IMG/VR virus record: IMGVR_UViG_3300035701_009377
Span: 11,408 to 75,407 of that record
Reading direction: 5' to 3' (one strand)
DNA: 64,000 bases
DNA from: a virus
Shown here: positions 10,097 through 54,646 of the stretch, one piece after another
Layout: the number at the start of each line of letters is the position of its first letter
How positions within the stretch are numbered: position 1 is the stretch's first letter
Notes under the pieces: generated by a model
The model's input: only the letters and a program-made list of their open reading frames with translations
Told to the model about the DNA's origin: nothing
Database searches by the model: none
Made by a program: the position numbers and the translations under genes

Positions 10097-10672
10097 TCAC
10101 CGTCGCTGTTGAGTCGGAACGGTGCTGTGCAATCTTTCTTTGAGGTAGACCAGCGGCTTTCGTCCCCAGGCCGAGTTCCAAGGCCGCGGCACCAGTATGC
10201 CCACCCCGCCGTGGGCCTCGAATTGGCGGATGTTCTCTTCGTTGTCGTCGATTAGCACCGCGCCCGGCTGGGCCAGAAAGTGTTTGCGCGGCGTGAGGAC
10301 GTACTGGCGGTGCATCCAGGCCGGGAAGTGGCGATGAATCCACTCCAATTTGCCGGCCACGCAGTCGGGGTCTTTTGTCGGGGCAGTGGCGATGCAGACG
10401 TTTTCCCGGCCCACGAGACGTGCGGCCTCCTCCAACAGCCAGGGGAAGACCTCGGACTCGGGCACCGTGGCCCACACCTCGCGGCCGATGAAGTTCCAGA
10501 AATCCGGCACTGTGTATTGCCGGCCGCCGAGCCAATTGGTGGCAGCCACGATGTCGTAGCCGACAGGCGGATAATCAGCGTAGTCCGTGGCGCTCACCTT
10601 GCAGCCAAGTTGGTGCAGGGCATACATGGTGAACGTGTTGCACACATCATCCTGATCCAGGAAGATTCTCAT
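10097..10672 (-). CDS. 5'(3')-deoxyribonucleotidase (NT5C, HAD family)
   Basis: Start MRIFLDQDDV (DxD motif I), K.EWI..HFP, VLIDD; ATGA overlap. Confidence 0.85.
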   Translation of the reverse strand: MRIFLDQDDVCNTFTMYALHQLGCKVSATDYADYPPVGYDIVAATNWLGGRQYTVPDFWNFIGREVWATVPESEVFPWLLEEAARLVGRENVCIATAPTKDPDCVAGKLEWIHRHFPAWMHRQYVLTPRKHFLAQPGAVLIDDNEENIRQFEAHGGVGILVPRPWNSAWGRKPLVYLKERLHSTVPTQQRR

Positions 10673-11346
10673 GCCTGTTCTTGGCGGCAGCGCAGGCCAC
10701 GCTTTTGGCAGTAATCTGCTTCGATACGGTTCACGATGTTTCCGATCTGCGACTTCTTGTATGGCACCTGAGCGGTGATTTGCCGGTATGTGCAGCCTGA
10801 TTCGGATAGCCGCAGGATTTTCCGTTCGGTGTCGTCCTTGCAACAAGAGCGGAGCAGGTCGCGGGCCTGAACCTTTTGTGCCTGCGGAGCTATCGGCAGG
10901 CGGCAGTGGTCAGGCATTGTGTTCACTACGGAGGGCACCTCGATCTCTTCTCCCTTTGCCTTGGCTCGTTGACGGTCCCCGTGTGACACTTGAATTGGCG
11001 ATTCATCTTCCAGCAGATGTCCGACAGCGGCATTGATGGAGACGCCGATATAACCGTTTGCGTTGGTGCGAACCTTGCCTTCGGCGATCTTATTGACAGC
11101 CTGGACCAGCGCAAGAAAGCCAGCGCTGGTCAGATCGTCGCGGAGATACGCTAGATGGGGAAACTGGGCCAGAAAACTGTCGACTTTGGCAACGACTAGC
11201 GGCATGTTGCCCTCAATCATCTGCCGGCGGGCATCAGCGTCACCGGCGACGACAAGCGGATAGAGCCGCTCGTTTTCCTCGACGGAGGACGGTTCGCCGA
11301 GGCGGGCCATGTCGGCAGTCAAATCGCTGTTGTATTGGCTACTCAC
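10669..11346 (-). CDS. Phage-encoded sigma-70 family (group 3-like) sigma factor
   Basis: GTG start with GGAG; GDADARRQMIEGNMPLVV (regions 1.2/2.1), DDLTSAGFLALVQAV (2.2), C-terminal HTH ERKILRL...TYRQI. Confidence 0.8.
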   Translation of the reverse strand: MSSQYNSDLTADMARLGEPSSVEENERLYPLVVAGDADARRQMIEGNMPLVVAKVDSFLAQFPHLAYLRDDLTSAGFLALVQAVNKIAEGKVRTNANGYIGVSINAAVGHLLEDESPIQVSHGDRQRAKAKGEEIEVPSVVNTMPDHCRLPIAPQAQKVQARDLLRSCCKDDTERKILRLSESGCTYRQITAQVPYKKSQIGNIVNRIEADYCQKRGLRCRQEQA

Positions 11347-11836
11347 AGGTGCGTTCTCCGATGGGGTCGATGCGCCAGGCACAGAAGGGAGCGAAGCTGC
11401 GGGCTTCGCAGGCAGCAGGCGAGTAGTCGTACTCGCCCGCGTCCGGGTCGTAGATGCGGCCGTGGTCGTAGGCGACCGCGTGAAATGAGCGCCGACTGAC
11501 TCCTTCGATGACGCCTCGGCTGCCGTTGATCGCGCGCGCAAAGCGCCGCCAGCCGGCATCATCGGTGACGACTTCGCGCGGCTCGTACCTGGGGCCGGGA
11601 GAAAGGATCGGGCATAGTTCGACCGGCGTAACCGCCAGGCCGTGCCGTAGGCACACGTCAACCAATTCCTGAACGTGGAAGCCGGCTCGGCATAGCGGCT
11701 CAGGCAACACGTGGTTGACGATCTTGCCGCCGTCGTGGCCGATCTCTGCCAGGATGGTGGCGACCGGCATGTCCAGCGCGATGGCGAAGGATGTCGGCAG
11801 ACACATCCAGCGCTCGGGTTTGCGTTGTAGGCGCAT
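11339..11836 (-). CDS. Papain-fold (C39-like) cysteine peptidase
   Basis: Q...WMCLPTSFAIAL, HAVAYD...IYDP catalytic pattern. Confidence 0.65.
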   Translation of the reverse strand: MRLQRKPERWMCLPTSFAIALDMPVATILAEIGHDGGKIVNHVLPEPLCRAGFHVQELVDVCLRHGLAVTPVELCPILSPGPRYEPREVVTDDAGWRRFARAINGSRGVIEGVSRRSFHAVAYDHGRIYDPDAGEYDYSPAACEARSFAPFCAWRIDPIGERTCE

Positions 11837-42959: not shown

Positions 42960-43460
42960 TTACACCTTGATTCGCGTAGACGTAACGTAGGGGGCCACGG
43001 CCGGCGGCTCGACCGTCTGCGCGAAACGCTTGAATGCCTCGTAACCCTTCACCTGGAAGTTGTAGGGACCGGGCTTGAGAAGTTTGCCAAGAAGTCCTGG
43101 GTCGGGATCGACATTCGCATTGTGGTACTCGTTCCACACCAGCCACGGGAGCCAAGTGCGGTACTCGAAGGCATAGCGGCCCTTCTCCTCGTCGATCTCC
43201 AAAGGGCCGGCGGCGGACGCGATCCCAACACCCCGCCGGTCAATCACCTTGGGTGAAATGGGAATGTTGAATGCGATGCGGCTGGCCAGCGGGATGAACG
43301 TCGCCCGTGACGCGCCGCTCCACACCGGAATCTCCTCAAGCACCGCCGCCAGCCACGTCACGATGGCCTGCGCCAACGCCTCCTGCATGTGCGCGTGCAA
43401 GGCTTTGCGGTATCCCGCAAGGTCCAACGTCGGCGCGGCCAACGATGCGGTGAACTTCAT
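42960..43460 (-). CDS. Putative tail completion (HK97 gp10-like) protein
   Basis: PVWSGASRA motif; tail context. Confidence 0.5.
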   Translation of the reverse strand: MKFTASLAAPTLDLAGYRKALHAHMQEALAQAIVTWLAAVLEEIPVWSGASRATFIPLASRIAFNIPISPKVIDRRGVGIASAAGPLEIDEEKGRYAFEYRTWLPWLVWNEYHNANVDPDPGLLGKLLKPGPYNFQVKGYEAFKRFAQTVEPPAVAPYVTSTRIKV

Positions 43461-43864
43461 GGTCCGGTACTTTCCAGATAAGCAATCGCTCGCCGCAACA
43501 GTGTCGGGCTATCGAAGAAAGCCCCTAAGCCCATGTTGCACCAGTTGCAGAGGAGGCCGCGAACCTCTCCGGTCGTGTGATTGTCGTCCACACAGAATTG
43601 ACCCTTCGCATTGGTGCCCGCGTCCGTCCGCCCGCAAATCTTGCAGCGGCCGTCCTGGGCTTGCAGCAAGGTTCTATACTCCGCCTTCGTGATGCCAAAC
43701 TTGTGAAGAAGTTGATACTCACGCAGACAGTCCTTGCACCGCGGCTTCCGTTTGGCGTTGCCCAATTGATTGGGTTGAAACTCGTGTTTCGGCTTTTGCG
43801 CGCCACAAACAACGCAGCGATACAGTGACCCTTGTTCGGTCAAGCTCGTGTCACTGCTTACCAT
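43457..43864 (-). CDS. Endonuclease VII-like free-standing homing endonuclease
   Basis: Q.GRCKIC, VD.NH.TG.VRGLLC..CN..LG...D. Confidence 0.85.
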   Translation of the reverse strand: MVSSDTSLTEQGSLYRCVVCGAQKPKHEFQPNQLGNAKRKPRCKDCLREYQLLHKFGITKAEYRTLLQAQDGRCKICGRTDAGTNAKGQFCVDDNHTTGEVRGLLCNWCNMGLGAFFDSPTLLRRAIAYLESTGP

Positions 43865-44554
43865 TCGCCCTTCTCTCAGAACAGCCTGTGGGCATCCTTG
43901 CCCCAAGCAGTTGAGCCTCCCGTTCTTGCTCGTCGTAACTGGCGATCTGATCGAAGGCGACGATAAGAGCCTGAGTCTCAAGGCCGCACTCGTCCCACGA
44001 CTGCTTCATTCCCGGCGGCCGGATGCCTAGCCGACGACAGGCCCGCCAGACGGCGTATTCGCCACTTCGGAAAGGGGCGAAGAGAACTCGGGCGGCATTG
44101 GAGCTTGACCAGCAAGAAAAACCTCGCGGGCCTTTTGCAGCTTGGATTCGTCCAGCGCGTTGGCCTCCATGACCAAGGCCAGCACGCGGTTGGCCTCGAT
44201 CTGCGTCAGCCCGCCGCTTTTCAAGTCGGTCTCCCAGTTCGGCCAGGTGCGAGGGTCTTCCCGCTTCACCATGTCCCACTCGATCTCGCTCGGTTCCAGC
44301 GAGCGGGTCACGATGTAGCCCAGCCGCTTCTTGCCGTACTCGGCCGTCACTTGCTGGTAGGTCGGATCGTTCAGTTGCGGCACCCAGCCGTCTTTGGTGA
44401 GCTTGCCCGGCGGCTTGGGCACCGGGCAGATGGCATCGAACTCGTCCATGTCGGTCAGGCCGCGGGCACGGAACACGATCTTCTCGTCGCCGCGCGGCAG
44501 GACCAACACGACTTCGTTGCACAGGGTCTTGGGGTCGATTCCGCCAATCTTCAT
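43851..44554 (-). CDS. Tail assembly chaperone -1 frameshift product (gpGT-like)
   Basis: G-GTT-TTT at 44123-44117; the -1 frame stays open to the stop at 43851. Confidence 0.7.
44027..44554 (-). CDS. Tail assembly chaperone (gpG-like)
   Basis: Follows the tail tube gene; GAGG RBS; slippery GGTTTTT near the 3' end. Confidence 0.75.
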   Translation of the reverse strand: MKIGGIDPKTLCNEVVLVLPRGDEKIVFRARGLTDMDEFDAICPVPKPPGKLTKDGWVPQLNDPTYQQVTAEYGKKRLGYIVTRSLEPSEIEWDMVKREDPRTWPNWETDLKSGGLTQIEANRVLALVMEANALDESKLQKAREVFLAGQAPMPPEFSSPLSEVANTPSGGPVVG

Positions 44555-44688: not shown

Positions 44689-45768
44689 CTACGCGACAGC
44701 GCGCTCGACAATCGGCTCGGTGGCGTTGCACTTGCCGCTAATGGAGATCGTGGCGTCCTTGAAGTTGACCTCCTTCGAGTCGGCCCGGAAGTCCGGGAAG
44801 GTCGTCTTCTCATTCTCAGCCGTGCCGCAGGGCGGCGTGTAGAGCACGATCAGATCAATGGCATAGGGTTCACACGGATCGTCCGAGGAGCTAACCCACT
44901 CGGCCGCTCCGCCCGTCTGCTTCAGCGCGTCCATCGGGCTGACCGGCTCGCTGGTGCCCTGGGTGATGTGCTCGTAGACGGCCTCCAACTTCACGTCCAT
45001 CGGGGCTTCCTTGCTCTCCCGCACGGTGTCCAGGTTGCCCCGGTCCAGCAGGTACTCGTACTCCTTGTGCTCGGTGTACGTGATGTTGCCGTCGCCGATC
45101 TTGATGCTGAGGTTCTGCGGATAGAACGTGACCACAGCATTGTCAAGGTAGGTGCCGCTTCCGAGGGCCGGCGAAAACTCGATGTTGGTCGTGGTCGAGC
45201 CACCTGCCGCCACGCCCACCACCGTGGTTGCCACGGCCACATCCGTGCCGCCGCCGGTGAGGCTGGTGCCATCGCCGACGAGCAAGGGTTGCGGGGCCGC
45301 ACCCAGAGCCCCCTTGAACTCGACCACCCAAGGCGTGGCCGGGCCGGGGCCGCCGGTCACGCCCCAATCGCTGGTCGTGTAGCCGTCGTCCATCGCCACC
45401 AGGGCGGCCTTGACGGCTGCGGCGTCGGCGTTGTAGGCGATACCCGCCGTCTCGTGGCCGCCGAACGACAGGGTGAAAGTGCCGCCCGACGAGTCGCTGT
45501 CGATTGTGACCGACTGTTTGGCGTTGGTGCCGGACTCGTTTTGCGTGCGAGCCGTGACGGTGTGGAACACCGGCGAGGTCTCTCCGACCACCTTGAAGCG
45601 CGCCCCGAGGGGCACCTGGGTGGCAATGGCGGTGTTCAAGGATACGTTGTCGATGTCAAACTGGGTCGCGCCGACCTGGGGCGGGCTGGACGGCTCGTTC
45701 ACCGCCGTCGTGCCGCTGAGGCCGTCTTGGAGAATGACATCGCAGTCTCGCAGTTCGATGCGTGCCAT
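44689..45768 (-). CDS. Major tail (tube) protein with an inserted accessory domain
   Basis: Position after the terminator and before the chaperone; strong AGGAG RBS. Confidence 0.75.
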   Translation of the reverse strand: MARIELRDCDVILQDGLSGTTAVNEPSSPPQVGATQFDIDNVSLNTAIATQVPLGARFKVVGETSPVFHTVTARTQNESGTNAKQSVTIDSDSSGGTFTLSFGGHETAGIAYNADAAAVKAALVAMDDGYTTSDWGVTGGPGPATPWVVEFKGALGAAPQPLLVGDGTSLTGGGTDVAVATTVVGVAAGGSTTTNIEFSPALGSGTYLDNAVVTFYPQNLSIKIGDGNITYTEHKEYEYLLDRGNLDTVRESKEAPMDVKLEAVYEHITQGTSEPVSPMDALKQTGGAAEWVSSSDDPCEPYAIDLIVLYTPPCGTAENEKTTFPDFRADSKEVNFKDATISISGKCNATEPIVERAVA

Positions 45769-46816: not shown

Positions 46817-47071
46817 TTAACGACGGTGGGAACGACCGTCCTGGTCCAAGGTCTTTTCCAGACGCTCCATCATCATGGTGTTCTGGGCGATGACATCCGA
46901 GCAACGCTCCACCAAGGGCAGCAAGACCGTGCGTTGCTCGTCTTCCAGCTTGTCAACGCGATTGCACAAGCGGTTTTCGCGGACCCAGCCCTGCCAAAGG
47001 AAGAAGGCCGTGACCACGATCAAAGGCCCATACTGCTTGAGCAGCGTCACTACATCGGTGAACAAGTCCAT
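46817..47071 (-). CDS. Holin-like membrane protein
   Basis: QYGPL plus a single TM helix and coiled coil; GGAGG RBS. Confidence 0.55.
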   Translation of the reverse strand: MDLFTDVVTLLKQYGPLIVVTAFFLWQGWVRENRLCNRVDKLEDEQRTVLLPLVERCSDVIAQNTMMMERLEKTLDQDGRSHRR

Positions 47072-47103
47072 TGCAGGGCCTCCGCAGGAAAAGGGTGACA
47101 CGA

Positions 47104-47145
47104 GAAAGGCTGCCCGGCCGGGATCGCGCCCGGCCGGGCAAGCCT
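47104..47145 (-). terminator. Hairpin / terminator after the capsid gene
   Basis: GCCCGGCCGGG...CCCGGCCGGGC stem followed by TTTCT on the minus strand. Confidence 0.55.
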
Positions 47146-47157
47146 GTCAGCACACGG

Positions 47158-48555
47158 TTAGCCGAGCATCGGGACGCAGAGGGCCGAGTCGAGCACCGCC
47201 ACACCCGCGAGCACGTCGCAGTTGACGATGGTGCCGCCCGCGTTGATGTCGTACTGCATCAGCACGCGCATCCCGATCCCGTTGAAGTCCTGGACCGCAG
47301 CGGCGACCCCGGCCGTCGGATGGGGCAGGGCCAGGGGCCGAGTCACCAGGGCGATGGCATTCCGATGGAAGGCCAGGTTCATCGTGCCGTAGGGGCCGGG
47401 GAAGGCGGGGTCGTCGTTGGCGACGGCGACCTCCAACGGCCGATCCAGGTACACGGTGCAGCTCGCGCCGGCGTCTTCCGACTCGATCACCGTGTAGGTC
47501 CGGCGGCTACCACCGGTGCCGAAGGCAAGCAACTGGCCGACCTGCGGGGCATGGGCGGCGGTGTAGCCGTCCAGCACGATTCCCTCGCTATAGCCGGCCG
47601 CGTAGCTGGCCGCTGCGGCGCATGCCTTGTAGGCGGTAGCCACGGCGTTGTCCTCGGTGGCGTACTTCAGCGCCTCGTTCAGCTTGAACCAGGCGGCGTT
47701 GGTCGCCGTGCAATAGGTCGGCTGATCGTTGCCGGCGATGACGACGAACTCACCCACGGTGGGAGCCAGGACGGAAGCAAGCTCCGTCCCCGCGGCGGTG
47801 CCCGCGGCATACGGCTCGGTCACAGGATCGGTGTCGCTGTCGGCACCCGAGAGGACGCAGTTGACGTTCTGGTCCATGTAGGTCTCGAAGCCGAGGATGC
47901 GGCCCAGGGTGGCGTTCTGAAGCGCCGTGCCGCCGTCGCCACGCTCGTTGGCCTTGAGGAACAGGTCGGTCTTGAGCATGGCCGTCTCGCTGGTGGGGGC
48001 CATGACCAGGTTCCGGCCGTCCACGGGGCACTTGTTGACGTTCAGTCGCTCGCGGGCCTCAAGCACGTAGTCCTTGGCGTTGCTGGCCGACAGGCCGCCC
48101 AGTTGGCCGACGCGGTTGCTCGGGCCGCCAAGGTAGGCATGGACCCGGCCCAATAGGGCGCGGTCGATGCCCAGGGCAATGCTCTGCATCGCCGGGCGGA
48201 GGTAGATGGTCGTCAACTCCTCGAAGGACTTGCTGCCTTCCCCGTCGCGGATGACGAAGGACTCGTAGAACCACTGGTCCAACGGCACAGGCACGTTGGT
48301 CGCCGTGGCGTCTTGCTGCACCAGGGTGGTGCCGTCCTTCTTCCGGCGAATCTTGAACTCGCCGGGCTTGCGAGTGTTCACCACGTCGCCAAACTTGGCG
48401 ATGGTGTTCTCGAACTCGCGGTTGACGAGGCCCGCCATGACCGTGTTCTGCGAGAGCATGGCCACGCCTGCGGCAGCCCACAACTCGGGGATGAAGGCGT
48501 CCAGGTCGTTCTCGTAGCAGGCGTAACGGACCTGCGCATGATACTTACGAAGCAT
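47158..48555 (-). CDS. Major capsid protein (P22 coat-like, HK97 fold)
   Basis: IPELWA, GDVVN.RKP, G.LGRILGF, NLAFHRNAIALVTRPL, DVL.G; GGAG RBS. Confidence 0.9.
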   Translation of the reverse strand: MLRKYHAQVRYACYENDLDAFIPELWAAAGVAMLSQNTVMAGLVNREFENTIAKFGDVVNTRKPGEFKIRRKKDGTTLVQQDATATNVPVPLDQWFYESFVIRDGEGSKSFEELTTIYLRPAMQSIALGIDRALLGRVHAYLGGPSNRVGQLGGLSASNAKDYVLEARERLNVNKCPVDGRNLVMAPTSETAMLKTDLFLKANERGDGGTALQNATLGRILGFETYMDQNVNCVLSGADSDTDPVTEPYAAGTAAGTELASVLAPTVGEFVVIAGNDQPTYCTATNAAWFKLNEALKYATEDNAVATAYKACAAAASYAAGYSEGIVLDGYTAAHAPQVGQLLAFGTGGSRRTYTVIESEDAGASCTVYLDRPLEVAVANDDPAFPGPYGTMNLAFHRNAIALVTRPLALPHPTAGVAAAVQDFNGIGMRVLMQYDINAGGTIVNCDVLAGVAVLDSALCVPMLG

Positions 48556-48635
48556 CGTTGTTCTCCACTTCACAGGTGTTTCAGTTTGAGTCAGCACGCA
48601 ACAGCGCATGCCTCACGATCCGATCCCCTGGAAGA

Positions 48636-49508
48636 TTAACGGCGGCCAGTGGGCCGAGTCCTCAGAAGCTCAGGGTTCTCCTTTTGGATTTTCAGATATT
48701 GCTGCGGAGTGATCTTCCGCAGGTCAATCTGGCCGTTGCCCGACGTAAGGCCGCCGGTAGCCGAACTCGATCCGATGCCCGACCTGACGCCGGAGCGGAA
48801 CATATTGCCCCAGGTGTCGGGATCGTCTTTCATCTTCTTCACGGCATCCTCGGGCGTGTACGCCTTGGTCTCCATTTCGCCCGTCGTTTGGTTGACGGCC
48901 TGCATCTCGACCATCGGCTTGTACTTGCCGGTAGGCTTGCCGGTCTTCGGGTCCACCTCGGGGACCAACTTGGTCAGTGGGCGGAGTTGGTTGGCAAGCT
49001 GGAAGGGCTGAAACGCCTCATGCTTCGTGGCGGCATCGGTCAGTGCCCGCTCGACCGTCGAATCGCGGTACAGGTTCTCGAAGAAGGAAGCCTTCTCGTT
49101 GGCCTCTTTGAGTTGCACGGCATACTGCTCCTGCAACTGTTTCTTCTCCACGGTAAGCTGTTCTTCCTTGCTGCGCAATTGGCCTTGCACGGTTTCCAAG
49201 TTCTCTTGCAGGGCCTTGCGGTCCTTCTCGGTCAAGGTGTTGCTGTCCAGGGCGGCCTTGAGTTTCGTTTCCATCTCCTGCAACTTGGTCTGATGCTTGC
49301 GGCGGTCCTCAGCCAAGTGTTTGTTCAGGTCGTCCTGCGTGAACATCTTGGCCGCACCGCCGCCGCTGCCGCCACCACCGTCATTGACGCTGCCAGCCGC
49401 GCCGCCACTGGCCGCGCCACCGACTGCTCCACCCGCGCCTCCCACGCCGTCTCCGCCTTCGCCCTCGTAGCAAGCGAACCGCACACCAGCCCAGTACCGC
49501 TTCAACAT
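48636..49508 (-). CDS. Capsid scaffolding protein
   Basis: Gly-rich N-terminus, FTQDDLN, coiled coil, C-terminal helix; directly upstream of the capsid gene. Confidence 0.82.
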   Translation of the reverse strand: MLKRYWAGVRFACYEGEGGDGVGGAGGAVGGAASGGAAGSVNDGGGGSGGGAAKMFTQDDLNKHLAEDRRKHQTKLQEMETKLKAALDSNTLTEKDRKALQENLETVQGQLRSKEEQLTVEKKQLQEQYAVQLKEANEKASFFENLYRDSTVERALTDAATKHEAFQPFQLANQLRPLTKLVPEVDPKTGKPTGKYKPMVEMQAVNQTTGEMETKAYTPEDAVKKMKDDPDTWGNMFRSGVRSGIGSSSATGGLTSGNGQIDLRKITPQQYLKIQKENPELLRTRPTGRR

Positions 49509-49618: not shown

Positions 49619-50167
49619 CTAGCTGACTCTTGACAACTTCACGGCATCCCCGTCCCGCAGGAACGGCCGCAACAGCCGCCACGCCACGGAACTGGGGACC
49701 ATGTTGATGATGTGCTCGATGGGGACTTGGTTCCGCGAATAGCCGGTTCGCACTTGCCCGTAGCCCATCGACTCCACAGACAGGTTCTCCAATTCCAGTT
49801 CCGGGTCTTTGCCGTCCAGCAAGGCGTAGGCGATCTCGTAGCACGCCCGGCGGATCGCCTCGGGTATTTCGGTGTCCGCGCCCCGTGGGAACTCCAGCGA
49901 TTGGCTGGCCTCGGCCGCTTGGATGTCGCTCGGGTCCGCCGCCGAGTTGGCGTCCAAGAGCGTGTAAACGCCGTGCTTGTAGCCCTTGAAGTTCAGGCCG
50001 TCGATGATCTGCGTGGCGGCAACGAGCGCCTTCTCCCGGTCGGCATCGCGGGCAGCGGACCAAGCAGTCTCGTGGAGCCGCTGGGCGAAGTAGGCCGTTG
50101 GCTCGGCAGTCCGTTCTGCCGCGGTATCGCCGTCCTGCTTGCCGTAGTAGTCGAAGTTGATCGCCAC
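49619..50167 (-). CDS. Head-tail adaptor (DnaT-like family)
   Basis: EKAL..AT..ID...FKG, Q.LEFPR, IP..IR.AC.E.A. Confidence 0.78.
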   Translation of the reverse strand: MAINFDYYGKQDGDTAAERTAEPTAYFAQRLHETAWSAARDADREKALVAATQIIDGLNFKGYKHGVYTLLDANSAADPSDIQAAEASQSLEFPRGADTEIPEAIRRACYEIAYALLDGKDPELELENLSVESMGYGQVRTGYSRNQVPIEHIINMVPSSVAWRLLRPFLRDGDAVKLSRVS

Positions 50168-50177
50168 TGCTCGCCCC

Positions 50178-50774
50178 CTAACAAGCGATCCACGAGTACC
50201 CTTGGTCCGCCGCGCCACCGACGATGTAAACCTTCGCTAGATCGTCCACGTAGATGGGCGGCGACTGCTGGCCGGCGGACAGGATGAAGCCGTCCTCGGC
50301 GTTGTCGGCACGATTACCGACCATGATGACGTTGCCGTTGGCCCCGTTGGCGCGAAGCATGACGTACTTCTTTACCGGCCAGCCAACTGCGTGGCCGTGC
50401 TCGTTGACCGTCACCGCAACATCATGTCCCTCGCCTTCCAGGTCCACGTCTACCGCCATCATGGCCTCGATCAATTGCCAGCGCAGCGCCCCGGCGAAAT
50501 CCACGGGCCACGGGCCGCCGGCATCGCCGGAGACGGCGACGTTGCCCGCACCGACGACCGCTTCCAGAGCCGCTTGCACGGCTGCCGCCGCAGCGTCGAA
50601 GGCGATGTCTGCCGTCTCGACGCCATCGACGGCCAACTTGAAGTGGCCCGCCGTTGCCGTCACCGTGACCGTTTGCCGGGCACTGGCTGCACCAAGACGC
50701 ACCACCTCCGTGCCCACGGTGCCGCTGCCCGTGCGAAACTCGGCCTGCGATTCACGATCAATGTCAACCAGCAT
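50178..50774 (-). CDS. Virion structural / decoration protein with an inserted domain
   Basis: Beta-rich; shares its internal domain with the major tail protein. Confidence 0.6.
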   Translation of the reverse strand: MLVDIDRESQAEFRTGSGTVGTEVVRLGAASARQTVTVTATAGHFKLAVDGVETADIAFDAAAAAVQAALEAVVGAGNVAVSGDAGGPWPVDFAGALRWQLIEAMMAVDVDLEGEGHDVAVTVNEHGHAVGWPVKKYVMLRANGANGNVIMVGNRADNAEDGFILSAGQQSPPIYVDDLAKVYIVGGAADQGYSWIAC

Positions 50775-50777
50775 GGC

Positions 50778-52580
50778 CTATTCTCCGGTGAACTGGCCCT
50801 TGCCGCGCACGCGCCGGGCCGTGGTGTCTCGTAGGTCGGTATTACGGCTGGCGGCCTTCTCGTCCGTGCCGGCATTAGGATCAGCGGAAAGGTCCGCTAC
50901 GCCGCGGGCCGCCGGGTCGCTGCCTTTCGCCAAGCCGCCGAGGCCCTGCGACTGCGCCATGGCAATCCGCTCGATGCGGGCCAGATGGTCCGCACGGGCC
51001 TTCTGGTACTCGTCGTCATCGAACCCCAGAGCGATGGAGGCGGTCTGCTCGCCTACCAACCCGGCTTCGGCCGCTTGAACAATTGTCAGCGGATCGCTGG
51101 TGGTGAAATGAGCGTTGTCGATTTCCTGGTTGATCTGCTCGATGTTCCCGACACTGATCTTGCCGCCTAGAAGGGCCAGCACGACGCACTTGGCAAGCTC
51201 TCGCTTGATCTTCCGCCCCGGCACCGCCGACATCAGCTTCACCAGGTCTTCGGCCTCCTTCACCCGGTCGGAGTCCGTCTTGAGGCTGTAGCGATCCGGG
51301 TACTTGATCGTCGCCACCTCGCGGCGGGCCTCGCTCCGTTCCTCATAGGCCGCCCAGTGCTCGGCGATCTGCCGCTCGGCGTTTTCCAACACCAATCCGA
51401 TGTAGGACAACCCGGCTTCGAGCCCCTGGTTGTCCATCTGCTTCGACTCTGCCGACACTCGCACCGCCAAGCTCGACACGGCCAGGTTGACCAACTCGCG
51501 GATGTCCCGCTTGATCCGGTCCTGCAATTCCAGGCTCGCCCGCAGCGGCTCGGCCGAGGGATTGATAAAGGCGGGCGCGTTCATCCCTTTGTCGTAGGTC
51601 CGGCCGTGGGTCGCGCCCACTTTGATGTCGGTGTCGGCCGCGCCTTGGCCGCCGGTTGTCGCCGTCCCATCCGCATTGGCCGCTGGCTTCAAATGGGCAC
51701 CGACCGCCCGCAGGTCCTTCTGCTCGATGTAGAACGGGAAGTTGCTCCGCAAGGCGTAATTCACATCGCTCGAACCGAGGTTGAGTAGTGCGACTTGCTG
51801 GGCGCAAACGTCCTTAATCATGCTGTCGCCCAGATCAAGCATGACGAAGGGGATGCGCGTCAATTCCAATTGGTAGGCACCGCTCGGAAGGCCCTCGCGG
51901 TTCACCGGCTTTCCGTCCACGTCGTAGAATTGCAGGCTGACCAGGCCGGTCTTCGGGTCGATCCACAACCGGCGGTAGCGGCTCACGGATCGCGTCGGCA
52001 GCAGGTACTCCTCGTCGTACTGCATCACCGTGTCGCGCAGGAGCACCGATTGGAACTCGCTCGGCTCTTCGGCGTTGCCGCACGACCAGCTCAAAATGTC
52101 CTCGATGTCGTACTTGTAGAGGTACGGCCGCACGTCGCCCGCCTCGGCCAGCGTCAGCGGGGCAGGAACCGCCGGAGCGTCCACGTACACGCCCACGCGG
52201 CCCATGACCAACAGTTCCGTCAGCACCTTGACGCCGAAAAAGGCGTTCATCGTCGAGCCGCGGCGGTCCACGCCCAGGTCCAGCCCGGCCACGGCGTTCT
52301 GGTAGGCTTGGCTCCCCCCACGCCGCGTGATGTCCCGCATCCGCTGGAAGATCGCGTTGCGGATGTCGTTGATGGCCGCCTTGGCGAAGGCCGGGACCGG
52401 GGTGATGTTCTTGCGGGTGATGAAATCCGTGTTGTCTTCCCTGGTGGTGAACCGCTCCAAGTAGGAATCGCGGAACTCCTCACCGCCGGAATAGGTCAGC
52501 CGCCACTTGCCCCAGTCAGTCTGATCGCCCAGGTACGAGGGATGGCGACTGTCGATGATGCGAGGTTTCTGGTCGGCCAT
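50778..52580 (-). CDS. Portal protein
   Basis: 600 aa directly after TerL; HP.Y...W, YL.RF..RE, IPFV. Confidence 0.85.
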   Translation of the reverse strand: MADQKPRIIDSRHPSYLGDQTDWGKWRLTYSGGEEFRDSYLERFTTREDNTDFITRKNITPVPAFAKAAINDIRNAIFQRMRDITRRGGSQAYQNAVAGLDLGVDRRGSTMNAFFGVKVLTELLVMGRVGVYVDAPAVPAPLTLAEAGDVRPYLYKYDIEDILSWSCGNAEEPSEFQSVLLRDTVMQYDEEYLLPTRSVSRYRRLWIDPKTGLVSLQFYDVDGKPVNREGLPSGAYQLELTRIPFVMLDLGDSMIKDVCAQQVALLNLGSSDVNYALRSNFPFYIEQKDLRAVGAHLKPAANADGTATTGGQGAADTDIKVGATHGRTYDKGMNAPAFINPSAEPLRASLELQDRIKRDIRELVNLAVSSLAVRVSAESKQMDNQGLEAGLSYIGLVLENAERQIAEHWAAYEERSEARREVATIKYPDRYSLKTDSDRVKEAEDLVKLMSAVPGRKIKRELAKCVVLALLGGKISVGNIEQINQEIDNAHFTTSDPLTIVQAAEAGLVGEQTASIALGFDDDEYQKARADHLARIERIAMAQSQGLGGLAKGSDPAARGVADLSADPNAGTDEKAASRNTDLRDTTARRVRGKGQFTGE

Positions 52581-52582
52581 CT

Positions 52583-54268
52583 CTAAATCACCTTTTCAAC
52601 GTCTTCGCTACCGCTTGTCGTGGCAGCCAACGACAGGCCGATGTCGGCATAGCAAAGGCTGTGGGCGAAGTGGTCTGCGCCGGTGTTCACGTACTCGGCC
52701 GCCGGGTTGCCCGTGTCGTCCTTCTTATAGGTGCGGACCATGTTTTTCAGGTGTTCGCGGTATTCCATCGAAATGTCGCGGGGGAGATGGATTCGCGTCG
52801 GGTTCGTCTTGAAGCGCCCGAGGGTGCAGTCAAGCCAGTTCGTCCTGTCCACGGTGGCGAACGGGGCACCCGTCTCCTCCTCACTGATCGCCACCTCTTT
52901 GGCCGTTTGCCCTCGCCGGTATCGCGTCAGCCACACGTAGCCGTGAAACTTCTTGGCAAAGCGGCGGGCGTCATTCGTGAATGGATCAGCGTCTACCACG
53001 CAGGCCAGGACTTGCCACTCCCGCATCAATTCGTCCAGGTAGCACCAGCCCGCGTCATTCACACCTGGGAACTTACCGAACCACAACAGCTTGCCGATGG
53101 CCGCCGCATTGATGTCGTCGCCCGGATGTCGGTCGAACAGCCACTCCATGACCGAGACATAGCCGGTGTTCCCCTGGTCCACCCCCATCGTTATCAGGCG
53201 ATGACCGCCTGTCGCCGGCCGCACGTCCTGAGTCGTGTGGCCTCGCAAGGCGGCCTCGATCATCGCGTCGGTGATTTGAGCGCCTTCGCCAATGAACGGC
53301 ACACCCAGCTTGCTGCAATGAAACTCCGTGTTCGCCGCTTCGTCGCCCAACCCGCGGTGATAGGCAATGACCAGTTCGCCGGGCGTCACCGTGGACGAGT
53401 AAAGCTGGTTGATGTAGAAGCCCCGCGACTCTTCCGCCAAGACGTTCGGTTCCGTGACGTGCCAAGTGCCGCCAGCCAGAAACTCCGGCTTCGCCTCGTG
53501 GTCCAGCTTGTGCTTGCACTCCTTACACTTGAGGAACGATTCCTTGCACCGCGGATCATTGACCGACTCACCGATGATCTCGACGCAATCGGGCCAGATG
53601 AGTTCCGTCCATCGGCTGCAATGCGGACACCGGAAGTAAAAGTGCTCCTGGGTGCTGGTCAGGTACAGTTTGTGGACGCCATACTTCGGAACGGTCGGCG
53701 TGGAGATTGCCAGGATGTGCTTCTGGACCTGTCCCGACAGGCGCTCCAACGCCAGCCAGACCGCGTGATTGTCCATCTCGTCCATCTCGTCCAAGACCAA
53801 CTCGGACACCGGGATGGACTTCAAGTTGCTGTCGCCGCGGCTCCCGCGAATGTAAAGGACGTTCTGGCCGGTCGATTTCAGCCCCACGGTGTTCGTATCG
53901 ACGAACAGGTCTTTCAAGTACGGGCTGAGTTTCAGGGCGGTGGCGAAGCGGGCCTTGGAAAAGTCGCTCGCGTTCAAGGTCGTCGGCAGCACATAGAGCA
54001 CGTCCCGCCGCAGCTTGTCGAGCGTGAAGAAGGCCCGGTTGATCCCCGTCTCCGTGACGCCCAACTGGGCGGCCTTCATGGCAATTGTCCAGGCCGCCTT
54101 GCTGTCGTGAATCTCCTTGCACCAAGGGTGTCGTGCGAAACTGTAAGGACCGACGAAGGGCGATCCCATCACGCGGCGACGTTCGGCCCAGCGGCTACAA
54201 GACGTGAGTGTCCTGCTCTCCATGCCGTCCCGAATGGTCTGTCTCAAGTCGTCTGCTAGACTAGGCAT
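52583..54268 (-). CDS. terL: Terminase large subunit (lambda GpA-like)
   Basis: MKAAQLGVTE Walker A variant, LVLDEMD, ISTPT, CxxC pairs, MGVDQG and DHFAH nuclease motifs. Confidence 0.92.
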   Translation of the reverse strand: MPSLADDLRQTIRDGMESRTLTSCSRWAERRRVMGSPFVGPYSFARHPWCKEIHDSKAAWTIAMKAAQLGVTETGINRAFFTLDKLRRDVLYVLPTTLNASDFSKARFATALKLSPYLKDLFVDTNTVGLKSTGQNVLYIRGSRGDSNLKSIPVSELVLDEMDEMDNHAVWLALERLSGQVQKHILAISTPTVPKYGVHKLYLTSTQEHFYFRCPHCSRWTELIWPDCVEIIGESVNDPRCKESFLKCKECKHKLDHEAKPEFLAGGTWHVTEPNVLAEESRGFYINQLYSSTVTPGELVIAYHRGLGDEAANTEFHCSKLGVPFIGEGAQITDAMIEAALRGHTTQDVRPATGGHRLITMGVDQGNTGYVSVMEWLFDRHPGDDINAAAIGKLLWFGKFPGVNDAGWCYLDELMREWQVLACVVDADPFTNDARRFAKKFHGYVWLTRYRRGQTAKEVAISEEETGAPFATVDRTNWLDCTLGRFKTNPTRIHLPRDISMEYREHLKNMVRTYKKDDTGNPAAEYVNTGADHFAHSLCYADIGLSLAATTSGSEDVEKVI

Positions 54269-54277
54269 GATCCAGCA

Positions 54278-54646
54278 TCACGGTAATCGCATCCAAGGAA
54301 ACGAGCGGACGACGACCATAACGTCTTGAGTCCGCACGGTGCTCTTGCCACATGCGTAAACAAAGAACGTCGGCACGCTGGTCACTCCGTACTTCGCCGC
54401 CAAGTCGGGCCGGGCATCAATGTCCACGATCTCAACGTCCACGCCGGCCGCTTGAACTTGGACAAGAACTGACTTGGCCCGCTGGCAGGGAACGCACCAA
54501 GAAGCTGTGAAGGCCAACACCTTGGGGCGGCTGCACGGGCCACAGTTGTTCTCCGGTGGCGCTTCACAGCCGGCGAAGCTCAATGCCAGCGCCATCGCCG
54601 CCAACGGCAACGCTACGTGCATCAGGAAGGTGTTGGTCTTGCGCAT
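54278..54646 (-). CDS. Thioredoxin-family lipoprotein
   Basis: Lipobox FAGC; FTASWCVPC active site; VPT cis-Pro loop. Confidence 0.88.
   Translation of the reverse strand: MRKTNTFLMHVALPLAAMALALSFAGCEAPPENNCGPCSRPKVLAFTASWCVPCQRAKSVLVQVQAAGVDVEIVDIDARPDLAAKYGVTSVPTFFVYACGKSTVRTQDVMVVVRSFPWMRLP

What the first reader, a model, noticed from the sequence alone, without database searches (positions are those of the whole stretch)
47158..49508. Scaffold and major capsid protein share a 15-aa N-terminal leader (MLxxYxAxVRxACYE): candidate new maturation signal
Seen: the capsid starts MLRKYHAQVRYACYE-NDL (48555-48511) and the scaffold starts MLKRYWAGVRFACYE-GEG (49508-49464). These are 10/15 identical with conservative swaps, while the rest of the two proteins is unrelated. 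After the leader the capsid continues with a normal coat-like start (NDL..IPELWA). No prohead protease lies in the head cluster. Known: staphylococcal phage 80alpha scaffold and capsid share an N-terminal LQFF/A motif that is removed by the host ribosomal protease Prp. Inference: this is an analogous system with a different motif, cleaved near ACY/E by a host protease or by a phage cysteine peptidase (11339-11836 is the cytoplasmic candidate), or used as a Cys-dependent assembly tag.
Basis: partly seen in the sequence, partly recalled or inferred. Interest (0 to 1): 0.85.

Follow-up and report, generated by a model that had tools for sequence, protein, structure and literature searches.

The report
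Shared capsid–scaffold leader peptide
The coat protein and the scaffolding protein of this prophage each carry the same short extra peptide at their start; in about 190 related uncultured phage contigs this pair of peptides changes together, which makes it a real and probably removable assembly signal whose processing enzyme is still unproven.

Summary
The capsid (47158-48555, minus) and the scaffold (48636-49508, minus) begin with 15 residues that are 10/15 identical, and they share nothing else.

The exact motif is only a local dialect. Of 194 related loci with both gene starts intact (160 distinct), nearly all carry an N-terminal leader of about 14 aa on both proteins. The leader ends in Y or F. 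The coat then continues [A/D/E]-N-D..DA-FIPExW, and the scaffold continues with an acidic, Gly-rich linker.

Leaders differ strongly between phages but match within a phage (0 of 10,000 permutations reach the observed similarity). Shared residues use the same codon no more often than codon usage predicts (90 observed, 89 expected). Selection therefore acts on the protein, and gene conversion does not explain the match.

Leaderless relatives start at M-A-N-D/S/T, exactly at the inferred boundary, and their scaffolds are leaderless too.

No canonical prohead protease or Prp is encoded. It occurs in 8 of 8 complete leader-bearing relatives and in 0 of 4 complete leaderless relatives. That link is circumstantial.

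Cleavage, the responsible enzyme and the host L27 could not be tested. I rate this a new variant of the 80alpha/Prp theme.

The parts
47158..48555 (-). Major capsid protein, 465 aa, P22-like coat fold, made with an N-terminal leader
   Evidence: PF11651 at 1.3e-31; phrog_283 at 1.4e-60, matching from residue 15. AF2 model has pLDDT 89.
48514..48555 (-). Capsid leader, residues 1-14 (MLRKYHAQVRYACY).
   Evidence: Leaderless homologues begin M-A-N-(D/S/T) at this point. Residues 1-20 have pLDDT 46-53 and no secondary structure. Site logo.
48636..49508 (-). Scaffolding protein, 290 aa: leader, then an acidic Gly/Ala linker, then a coiled coil, then a basic C-terminus
   Evidence: phrog_206 at 8e-13 over residues 62-281. 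Conserved upstream of the capsid gene in 98 loci.
49467..49508 (-). Scaffold leader, residues 1-14 (MLKRYWAGVRFACY). The inferred boundary is Y14|E15.
   Evidence: Only these residues align with the capsid. The pair co-varies in related phages.
49347..49463 (-). Low-complexity acidic Gly/Ala-rich linker of the scaffold (residues 16-54), which tethers the leader to the scaffold body
   Evidence: Its length and composition vary between homologues, and leaderless scaffolds start directly with such a linker.
11339..11836 (-). Stand-alone cytoplasmic C39-like (papain-fold) cysteine peptidase, 165 aa: the candidate leader peptidase
   Evidence: No Pfam or PHROG hit. AF2 pLDDT 86. The top Foldseek hits are the PCAT1, LahT150 and ComA peptidase domains, prob 1.0, TM 0.54-0.65. 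C12 and H119 are invariant. Present in 8/8 complete relatives.
49619..50218 (-). Head-tail adaptor (Ad1-like), the conserved gene immediately upstream of the scaffold. It is context, not a protease.
   Evidence: phrog_477 at 2e-15; PF20557. Present in 77 loci.
50778..52580 (-). Portal protein (context)
   Evidence: phrog_145 at 6.3e-38.
52583..54268 (-). Terminase large subunit (context)
   Evidence: phrog_675 at 3.9e-90; PF05876 and PF20454.

Best explanation
The coat and the scaffold of this phage are each made with a short (about 14 aa), floppy, hydrophobic N-terminal leader that is an add-on to the normal start of both proteins. The same arrangement holds across a large clade of uncultured 65-128 kb phages with P22-like coats. 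The two leaders of one phage are kept alike by selection on the protein, because both must be read by one partner.

The most likely reading is a leader-guided processing step. A single peptidase recognises the leader and cuts after its last aromatic residue (here ACY|E). That exposes the coat N-arm (ENDLDAFIPELWA...) and frees the scaffold linker.

The best candidate enzyme is the phage's own cytoplasmic stand-alone C39-type cysteine peptidase (11339-11836, minus strand). C39 enzymes are the family that removes N-terminal leaders from otherwise unrelated cargo.

Shown here: the existence, conservation and co-variation of the leader; the boundary position; the both-or-neither pattern; the absence of canonical prohead proteases; and the fold and conservation of the peptidase.

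Inferred, not shown: that the leader is cut, where exactly it is cut, and by which enzyme.
For: 1. The leader pair is present in the window and in nearly all of 194 loci with both gene starts intact, 160 of them distinct.

2. Similarity of leaders within a phage far exceeds similarity between phages. The own-pair mean is 19.3 against a cross-pair mean of 9.6, and 0 of 10,000 permutations reach the observed value. In the larger set, 82 of 155 own pairs exceed the 95th percentile of cross pairs.

3. There is no excess of shared codons at identical residues: 90 observed against 89.2 expected over 194 positions. Position P5 also differs systematically, F in the coat and W in the scaffold. Together these point to protein-level selection and away from gene conversion.

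4. The boundary is sharp. P1 is Y or F in 81-85% of loci. P2 is V or C and is identical in coat and scaffold in 88% of phages. P1' is A, D or E in the coat and E or D in the scaffold.

5. Leaderless relatives start M-A-N-D/S/T exactly at the boundary, and their scaffolds lack a leader too. This holds for L147-149, L203, L325, R5C, Pan1, Keanu and phiCP34O.

6. AF2 leaves residues 1-20 of the coat unstructured, with pLDDT about 50.

7. No Prp, S78, S78_2 or S49 protease is found in G000 or in 8 complete relatives. ClpP appears in 1 of 11 records. The head module has no conserved protease gene.

8. P0279 has a C39 fold with invariant Cys and His and no signal peptide. Its family is present in 8/8 complete leader-bearing records (30 of 43 leader-bearing records in all; every record that lacks it is under 65% complete) and is absent from 4/4 complete genomes of leaderless relatives.
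Against: - No data show cleavage. There is no cultured member and there are no proteomics.
- The peptidase gene sits in the replication/regulatory region, about 36 kb from the head genes, not in the head module.
- C39 enzymes normally cut after Gly-Gly, whereas here P1 is Y or F (Gly in about 5% of loci).
- The presence/absence correlation is confounded by phylogeny. The leaderless complete genomes are distant relatives (34% coat identity or less), and no complete leaderless member of the clade itself was found.
- Leader divergence tracks the peptidase no better than it tracks other head proteins (partial Mantel 0.32, against 0.28-0.39 for the controls).
- In 80alpha the shared leader is needed for assembly while cleavage is dispensable (PMC5744158), so a leader need not act through its removal.
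Confidence: 0.4

Rival explanations
1. The leader is an uncleaved, or only incidentally cleaved, co-assembly tag. The two alike peptides pair with each other (homotypic strand pairing), or they dock in turn into one site on a phage protein such as the coat, portal or adaptor. This brings scaffold and coat N-arms together inside the procapsid. The dialects differ between phages because the partner is phage-encoded.
For: The two leaders need to be alike rather than complementary, and they co-vary over about 8-10 residues, which is longer than most protease sites. Gain and loss follow a both-or-neither pattern. The scaffold leader sits on a long flexible tether. In 80alpha the scaffold leader is required for assembly whereas cleavage is dispensable (PMC5744158).
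Against: Leaderless relatives assemble the same coat fold without any such tag. The boundary is very sharp, with a conserved aromatic P1 and an acidic or small P1', which looks like a processing site. AF2 shows no docking of the leader onto its own coat.
Confidence: 0.3
2. This is host-protease mimicry, as in 80alpha/Prp. The leaders copy the N-terminal extension of a host protein (L27 or another) and are removed by the host enzyme that processes that protein. The dialects would then reflect different hosts.
For: There is a direct precedent (PMC5744158, PMC9405229). P1 is aromatic and the coat P1' is Ala in 51% of loci, which resembles Prp's F|A site. No canonical phage prohead protease is present.
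Against: The leader does not match the L27 motif MLxx(D/N)LQ(F/L)F'A(S/H)KK. Leaders differ sharply between phages whose coats are 78% identical (the window against L004), which is faster than a host ribosomal-protein extension should change. The clade spans low- and high-GC phages, yet Prp is limited to a few phyla (PMC9405229). The host genome was not available, so this explanation is untested rather than refuted.
Confidence: 0.15
3. The leader acts as a shared regulatory or quality-control handle. Examples would be a common chaperone-binding or degradation signal, or a nascent-peptide signal that balances coat and scaffold synthesis, with no role in the assembled particle.
For: The authors of the 80alpha work raise a common-chaperone or regulatory role for the shared peptide. 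The leader is disordered and hydrophobic.
Against: Host chaperones and proteases are conserved, so they should not drive phage-specific dialects. Nothing here points to this role specifically.
Confidence: 0.1
4. The similarity is an artefact: mis-called starts, a recent DNA duplication or gene conversion, or a shared RNA element at the 5' end of the two genes.
For: None beyond the short length of the match.
Against: Upstream stops bracket the starts in homologues. Shared codons are at chance level. A systematic F/W difference is kept across clades. The pattern recurs in about 190 loci with quite different sequences.
Confidence: 0.03

Closest known systems
Staphylococcal phage 80alpha capsid and scaffold leaders cut by host Prp (PMC5744158, PMC9405229)
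   Same: Coat and scaffold share a 13-14 aa N-terminal peptide and nothing else. The phage has no prohead protease of its own. The site has an aromatic P1 and a small P1' (F|A).
   Different: The 80alpha leaders copy the conserved host L27 motif and are alike between phages. Here the leaders do not match that motif and form many phage-specific dialects that co-vary between coat and scaffold. The coat here is P22-like, and these phages carry their own C39-like peptidase. Host L27 and Prp could not be checked.
C39 double-glycine leader peptidases (PCAT1, LahT150, ComA peptidase domain)
   Same: The fold of the 11339-11836 protein is the same, with conserved Cys and His. The logic also matches: one enzyme removes a 15-30 aa N-terminal leader from unrelated cargo by reading the leader.
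   Different: The phage protein is stand-alone and cytoplasmic, with no ABC transporter. It has no Pfam-level sequence match. The putative sites end in Y or F rather than Gly-Gly. No activity has been shown.
Phage Cp-1 cysteine protease that removes an N-terminal extension of its capsid protein (cited in PMC9405229)
   Same: A phage-encoded cysteine peptidase trims the N-terminus of the major capsid protein.
   Different: The Cp-1 enzyme belongs to the Prp-like clan and removes about 40 aa. No scaffold carrying the same leader is described. I know this case only from the review, not from the primary paper.
T4 capsid targeting sequence and gp21 prohead protease (my own knowledge, not checked with tools here)
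   Same: A short N-terminal peptide shared by several head proteins is removed after assembly.
   Different: T4 uses a dedicated S77 serine protease encoded in the head module, with sites L/I-x-E. No such enzyme was found here, although the control search for S77 did not ring.
P22 coat/scaffold system (my own knowledge for the last point)
   Same: The coat family is the same (PF11651), a separate scaffold gene lies upstream, and there is no prohead protease.
   Different: Cultured P22-like-coat relatives examined here (R5C, Pan1, Keanu, phiCP34O) have no leader on either protein. P22 scaffold leaves the procapsid intact.

Membership tests
P22-like coat protein (PF11651) | Sequence match above the Pfam gathering score | tested here: met
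   110 bits against a cut-off of 24. phrog_283 at 1.4e-60.
80alpha/Prp-type leader system | Coat and scaffold share an N-terminal peptide and are otherwise unrelated | tested here: met
80alpha/Prp-type leader system | The leader matches the L27 extension motif MLxx(D/N)LQ(F/L)F'A(S/H)KK | tested here: not met
   Neither the window leaders nor the clade logo fit the motif given in PMC9405229. Only the aromatic P1 and the Ala P1' are alike.
80alpha/Prp-type leader system | The host encodes Prp and a long L27 | not testable with these tools
80alpha/Prp-type leader system | The leader is removed from virion proteins | not testable with these tools
   There is no cultured member and no proteome.
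C39 peptidase (for the 11339-11836 protein) | Papain-like fold of the C39 peptidase domain | tested here: met
   AF2 pLDDT 86. The top Foldseek hits are PCAT1, LahT150 and ComA, prob 1.0, TM 0.54-0.65. The Atlas structure rows carry PF03412.
C39 peptidase (for the 11339-11836 protein) | Conserved catalytic Cys and His | tested here: met
   C12 and H119 are invariant in alignment A2. The Cys is also kept in the further homologues whose N-termini were read.
C39 peptidase (for the 11339-11836 protein) | Sequence match to PF03412 or PF13529 | tested here: not met
   No Pfam hit at E 0.001, no PHROG hit, and no PDB sequence hit.
C39 peptidase (for the 11339-11836 protein) | The substrate leader ends in Gly-Gly (or GA/GS) | tested here: not met
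   P1 is Y or F in 81-85% of loci and Gly in about 5%.
Canonical prohead protease systems (S78, S78_2, S49, ClpP-like, S77) | A protease gene is present in the phage genome | tested here: not met
   S78, S78_2 and S49 were found in 0/11 records, and ClpP in 1/11. The S77 search is inconclusive because the family was not found in any control genome either.

The most novel reading that the evidence does not exclude
A large clade of uncultured phages matures its heads with a leader-guided, phage-encoded C39-type cysteine peptidase. This would be a class of enzyme not known in capsid maturation. Coat and scaffold would carry a matching, phage-specific 'address' peptide that co-evolves with the assembly machinery. 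Such a private code could keep related co-infecting phages or capsid-hijacking satellites from cross-assembling.
Probability: 0.3. Interest if true: 0.85.

Novelty: new variant of a known kind. Interest (0 to 1): 0.66.

Why it matters
Only one shared coat/scaffold leader system is described, 80alpha with host Prp, and its purpose is still unclear. This finding shows that the same architecture is widespread in environmental phages with a different coat family. About 190 contigs carry it, from sediment, freshwater and other samples.

Natural variation here gives something the staphylococcal case does not: dozens of leader dialects that co-vary between the two proteins, and clean leaderless controls. 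That makes the open question of what a shared leader is for directly testable by swapping dialects and by co-expression with one small candidate peptidase.

If the C39-like enzyme is the processing enzyme, it adds a new protease class to virus maturation. It would also provide a compact, orthogonal leader/peptidase pair.

Tried and rejected
- **Host identification and host L27/Prp.** The genome-contig scan found only two distant leaderless coats. The Atlas taxa are viral only. The metagenome scan gave no long host contig.
- **Sequencing runs.** Only sediment and other metagenomes hold the stretch, and no RNA holder is listed.
- **Complex prediction** of the C39-like protein with coat residues 1-40 returned 'no answer'. 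It counts neither for nor against binding.
- **Partial Mantel test.** Leader against C39 given the coat body gave r 0.32, p 0.0005. I rejected it as evidence because the adaptor, the head-closure protein and the 205-aa protein give 0.28-0.39.
- **A third leader-bearing protein.** None was found in the 75-kb record. The internal IRRACYE in the adaptor is a family motif (VP..I..A.YEIA..LL) that does not follow the leader dialects.
- **Gene conversion or an RNA element.** Rejected by the codon test.
- **A Cys-dependent tag or disulfide.** Rejected, because Cys is clade-specific and is absent from the L021 coat.
- **Lipoprotein signal (A|C lipobox look-alike).** Rejected by inspection. The peptide is too short and lacks a hydrophobic core, the proteins are cytoplasmic capsid parts, and the Cys is dispensable.
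- **A protease hidden between portal and scaffold.** Only variable fibre-like or repeat proteins and the adaptor lie there.
- **PDB sequence search** with the peptidase profile found nothing.
- **Literature.** Searches for a C39 or cysteine protease acting on phage coat or scaffold leaders found no precedent.
- **Complete leaderless clade members.** Two extra viral scans found none.
Full report
**What is in the window**

The minus strand between about 44.0 and 54.3 kb holds a phage structural operon:
- terminase large subunit (52583-54268)
- portal (50778-52580)
- a 198-aa protein with an Ig-like domain (50178-50774)
- an Ad1-like head-tail adaptor (49619-50218)
- the scaffolding protein (48636-49508; phrog_206)
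- the major capsid protein (47158-48555; PF11651 P22_CoatProtein, phrog_283)
- head-closure and tail genes

The window is part of a 75.4-kb IMG/VR provirus record. The record has an integrase beside a tRNA-Lys(CTT) gene in the 11.4 kb to the left of the window.

The coat starts MLRKYHAQVRYACYE and the scaffold starts MLKRYWAGVRFACYE, which is 10/15 identical. BLASTP aligns only these residues. Both ATGs have a Shine-Dalgarno-like sequence. In related loci an in-frame stop lies 1-11 codons upstream of the same Met. The leaders are therefore translated.

**The leader is a clade-wide feature and the window's motif is one dialect**

The coat has more than 1,300 relatives in the protein collections and 2,752 among 50%-identity cluster representatives. 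Scans of IMG/VR brought in about 250 loci. In 194 of them (160 distinct) both the coat 5' end and the upstream scaffold ORF are complete.

Close relatives (58-85% coat identity) carry pairs such as:
- MNRLYLSQPFVACY|ENNLDA with MFRSLYLSRPWVSCF|EGEGG
- MKINLYLSLAQVACF|DNDNDA with MKLFDLLLSRAQFACF|DGEDA

Distant relatives (about 40-50% identity) carry quite different leaders that again match within the phage:
- L048: ARPFMAVY|D with ARPWFAVY|E
- L083: KKMFAPVY|A with KKMFVPVY|E
- L092: IQLTYC|D with IQLTYC|E
- L098: ASNSFY|D with ASLSFY|D
- L123: SYQIKWIG|A with SYQIKWVG|E
- L155: KFFKPVY|A with KFFKPVY|E

A logo from 96 distinct loci gives a median leader of 14 aa, with:
- P1 Y or F (81-85%; H, G or C rarely)
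- P2 V or C, identical between coat and scaffold in 88% of phages
- P6 Pro in over a third of loci
- P5 F in the coat but W in the scaffold
- P1' A, D or E in the coat, followed by an invariant N
- P1' E or D in the scaffold, followed by a Gly/acidic/Ala/Pro-rich linker

The L021 coat has Ala at that position.

**The two leaders evolve in concert, under selection on the protein**

The last eight leader residues of a coat match the scaffold of the same phage far better than scaffolds of other phages. The mean score is 19.3 against 9.6, and 0 of 10,000 permutations reach the observed mean. In the larger set the median is 26 against 12. If the two leaders had simply drifted apart independently from a common start, own and foreign pairs would be equally alike. 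They are not.

Gene conversion or an RNA-level constraint would leave shared codons. Over 194 identical, degenerate positions in 40 distinct pairs, 90 use the same codon against 89.2 expected from codon usage. The F/W difference at P5 is kept across clades. The likeness is therefore maintained at the protein level, and both leaders must fit one partner, or fit each other.

**The leader is an add-on, gained or lost on both proteins together**

Leaderless coats start M-A-N-(D/S/T)... or MAVTSFIPKLW. This is exactly where the leader-bearing coats continue after the aromatic residue. It holds for distant MAG prophages, Clostridium phage phiCP34O, Dinoroseobacter phage R5C, Pseudanabaena phage Pan1 and Streptomyces phage Keanu, and several cluster representatives.

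Wherever a leaderless coat was found with its scaffold, the scaffold is leaderless too and begins directly with the low-complexity linker. This holds for L147-149, L203, L325 and the cultured phages.

AF2 models the coat well (pLDDT 89). It leaves residues 1-20 without structure at pLDDT about 50, and the N-arm helix starts at residue 23.

**Which enzyme, if any?**

The conserved head module is portal, then variable genes, then adaptor, scaffold, coat, head closure and so on. It has no protease.

Six-frame profile searches of this record and of ten large relatives, eight of them complete, gave the following:
- no Prp, S78, S78_2 or S49
- ClpP in one 89%-complete record only
- an uninformative S77 search, because the family was not found in any control genome either

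It has no Pfam or PHROG match. Its alignment with eight homologues has an invariant Cys12 and His119. Its AF2 model (pLDDT 86) hits the C39 peptidase domains of PCAT1, LahT150 and ComA first, with prob 1.0 and TM 0.54-0.65. The ESM Atlas places it among viral clusters next to PF03412 families. The catalytic Cys is at residue 12, so there is no signal peptide.

The family is present in 30 of 43 leader-bearing records searched (11 of 22, 19 of 21). All eight that are at least 90% complete carry it, and every record without it is under 65% complete. It is absent from the four complete genomes of leaderless cultured relatives.

C39 enzymes are leader peptidases that read an N-terminal leader and ignore the cargo. 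That is the logic needed for two unrelated proteins with one leader.

The link is still circumstantial, for these reasons:
- The gene is far from the head module.
- C39 enzymes cut after Gly-Gly, while P1 here is Y or F.
- The leaderless controls are distant relatives.
- A partial Mantel test that looked supportive gave the same signal for other head proteins.
- The complex prediction gave no answer.

**Comparison with what is known**

The closest system is 80alpha. There, host Prp removes 13-14 residues that coat and scaffold share with ribosomal protein L27. The scaffold leader is needed for assembly, but cleavage itself is dispensable (PMC5744158).

The present leaders do not fit the L27 motif MLxx(D/N)LQ(F/L)F'A(S/H)KK (PMC9405229). 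They vary between phages whose coats are 78% identical. They occur across low- and high-GC phages, whereas Prp is confined to a few phyla. A host enzyme is therefore less likely than a phage partner. It is not excluded, because no host genome could be reached.

An uncleaved co-assembly tag, through homotypic pairing or a shared docking site, remains a serious rival. It is compatible with the 80alpha genetics.

**Verdict**

The feature is a leader signal shared by coat and scaffold, analogous to 80alpha, but with phage-specific co-varying dialects, no L27 likeness and a conserved phage C39-like peptidase as candidate. Cleavage and the enzyme responsible are unproven. I file it as a new variant of a known kind and score its interest at about 0.66.

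Noticed in passing
window 55966-56538 (-), 56999-57601 (-), 54278-54646 (-): A second C39-like papain-fold protein carries a lipoprotein signal (LLAPFAGC|E). A permuted NlpC/P60-like protein and a thioredoxin (PF00085) lie with it between the terminase and upstream genes. These are probably lysis or envelope functions. Because the second peptidase is exported, it is not a candidate for cutting the leader.
   Followed up: partly
window 56520-57002 (-) and 43457-43981 (-): An HNH-AP2 homing-type endonuclease (phrog_99 at 9e-43) and an endonuclease VII (PF02945 at 3e-22) are inserted in the structural region.
   Followed up: no
window 50178-50774 (-) and 44689-45768 (-); L010, L021, L059: The slot between portal and adaptor is variable. 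In the window it holds a 198-aa protein that shares an Ig-like domain (phrog_10909) with the major tail protein. In relatives it holds 600-790-aa repeat or collagen-like (GTNGTNG...) proteins.
   Followed up: partly
L029:2748-2820 (-) and L029:2976-4250 (+): A tRNA-Lys(CTT) gene sits next to a tyrosine integrase at the left end of the provirus record. This is the likely attachment site, and only about 2.7 kb of host DNA is held.
   Followed up: partly
window 10669-11310 (-) approx.: A sigma-factor-like gene (weak phrog_351 hit) lies directly downstream of the C39-like peptidase gene. The long 397-aa ORF listed there overlaps the peptidase in another frame and is probably over-extended.
   Followed up: no
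G013 (L098 record) 46947-47342 and 68014-68415; G008 (L042 record) 72292-72693 and 50314-50595; G032 92838-93374: Two complete relatives carry two C39-like paralogues each. In one complete relative the homologue is interrupted by a TAA stop.
   Followed up: no
L122, L123, L126, L192/L193, L045; L035; L062, L137, L176: Some leader dialects end in an unusual residue: Gly (..WYG|..KWIG|), Lys/Arg (L035) or His. In each case both coat and scaffold end the same way. The Gly-ending group L122/L126/L193 has its own subgroup of C39-like proteins, but their coats are also closely related to each other.
   Followed up: partly
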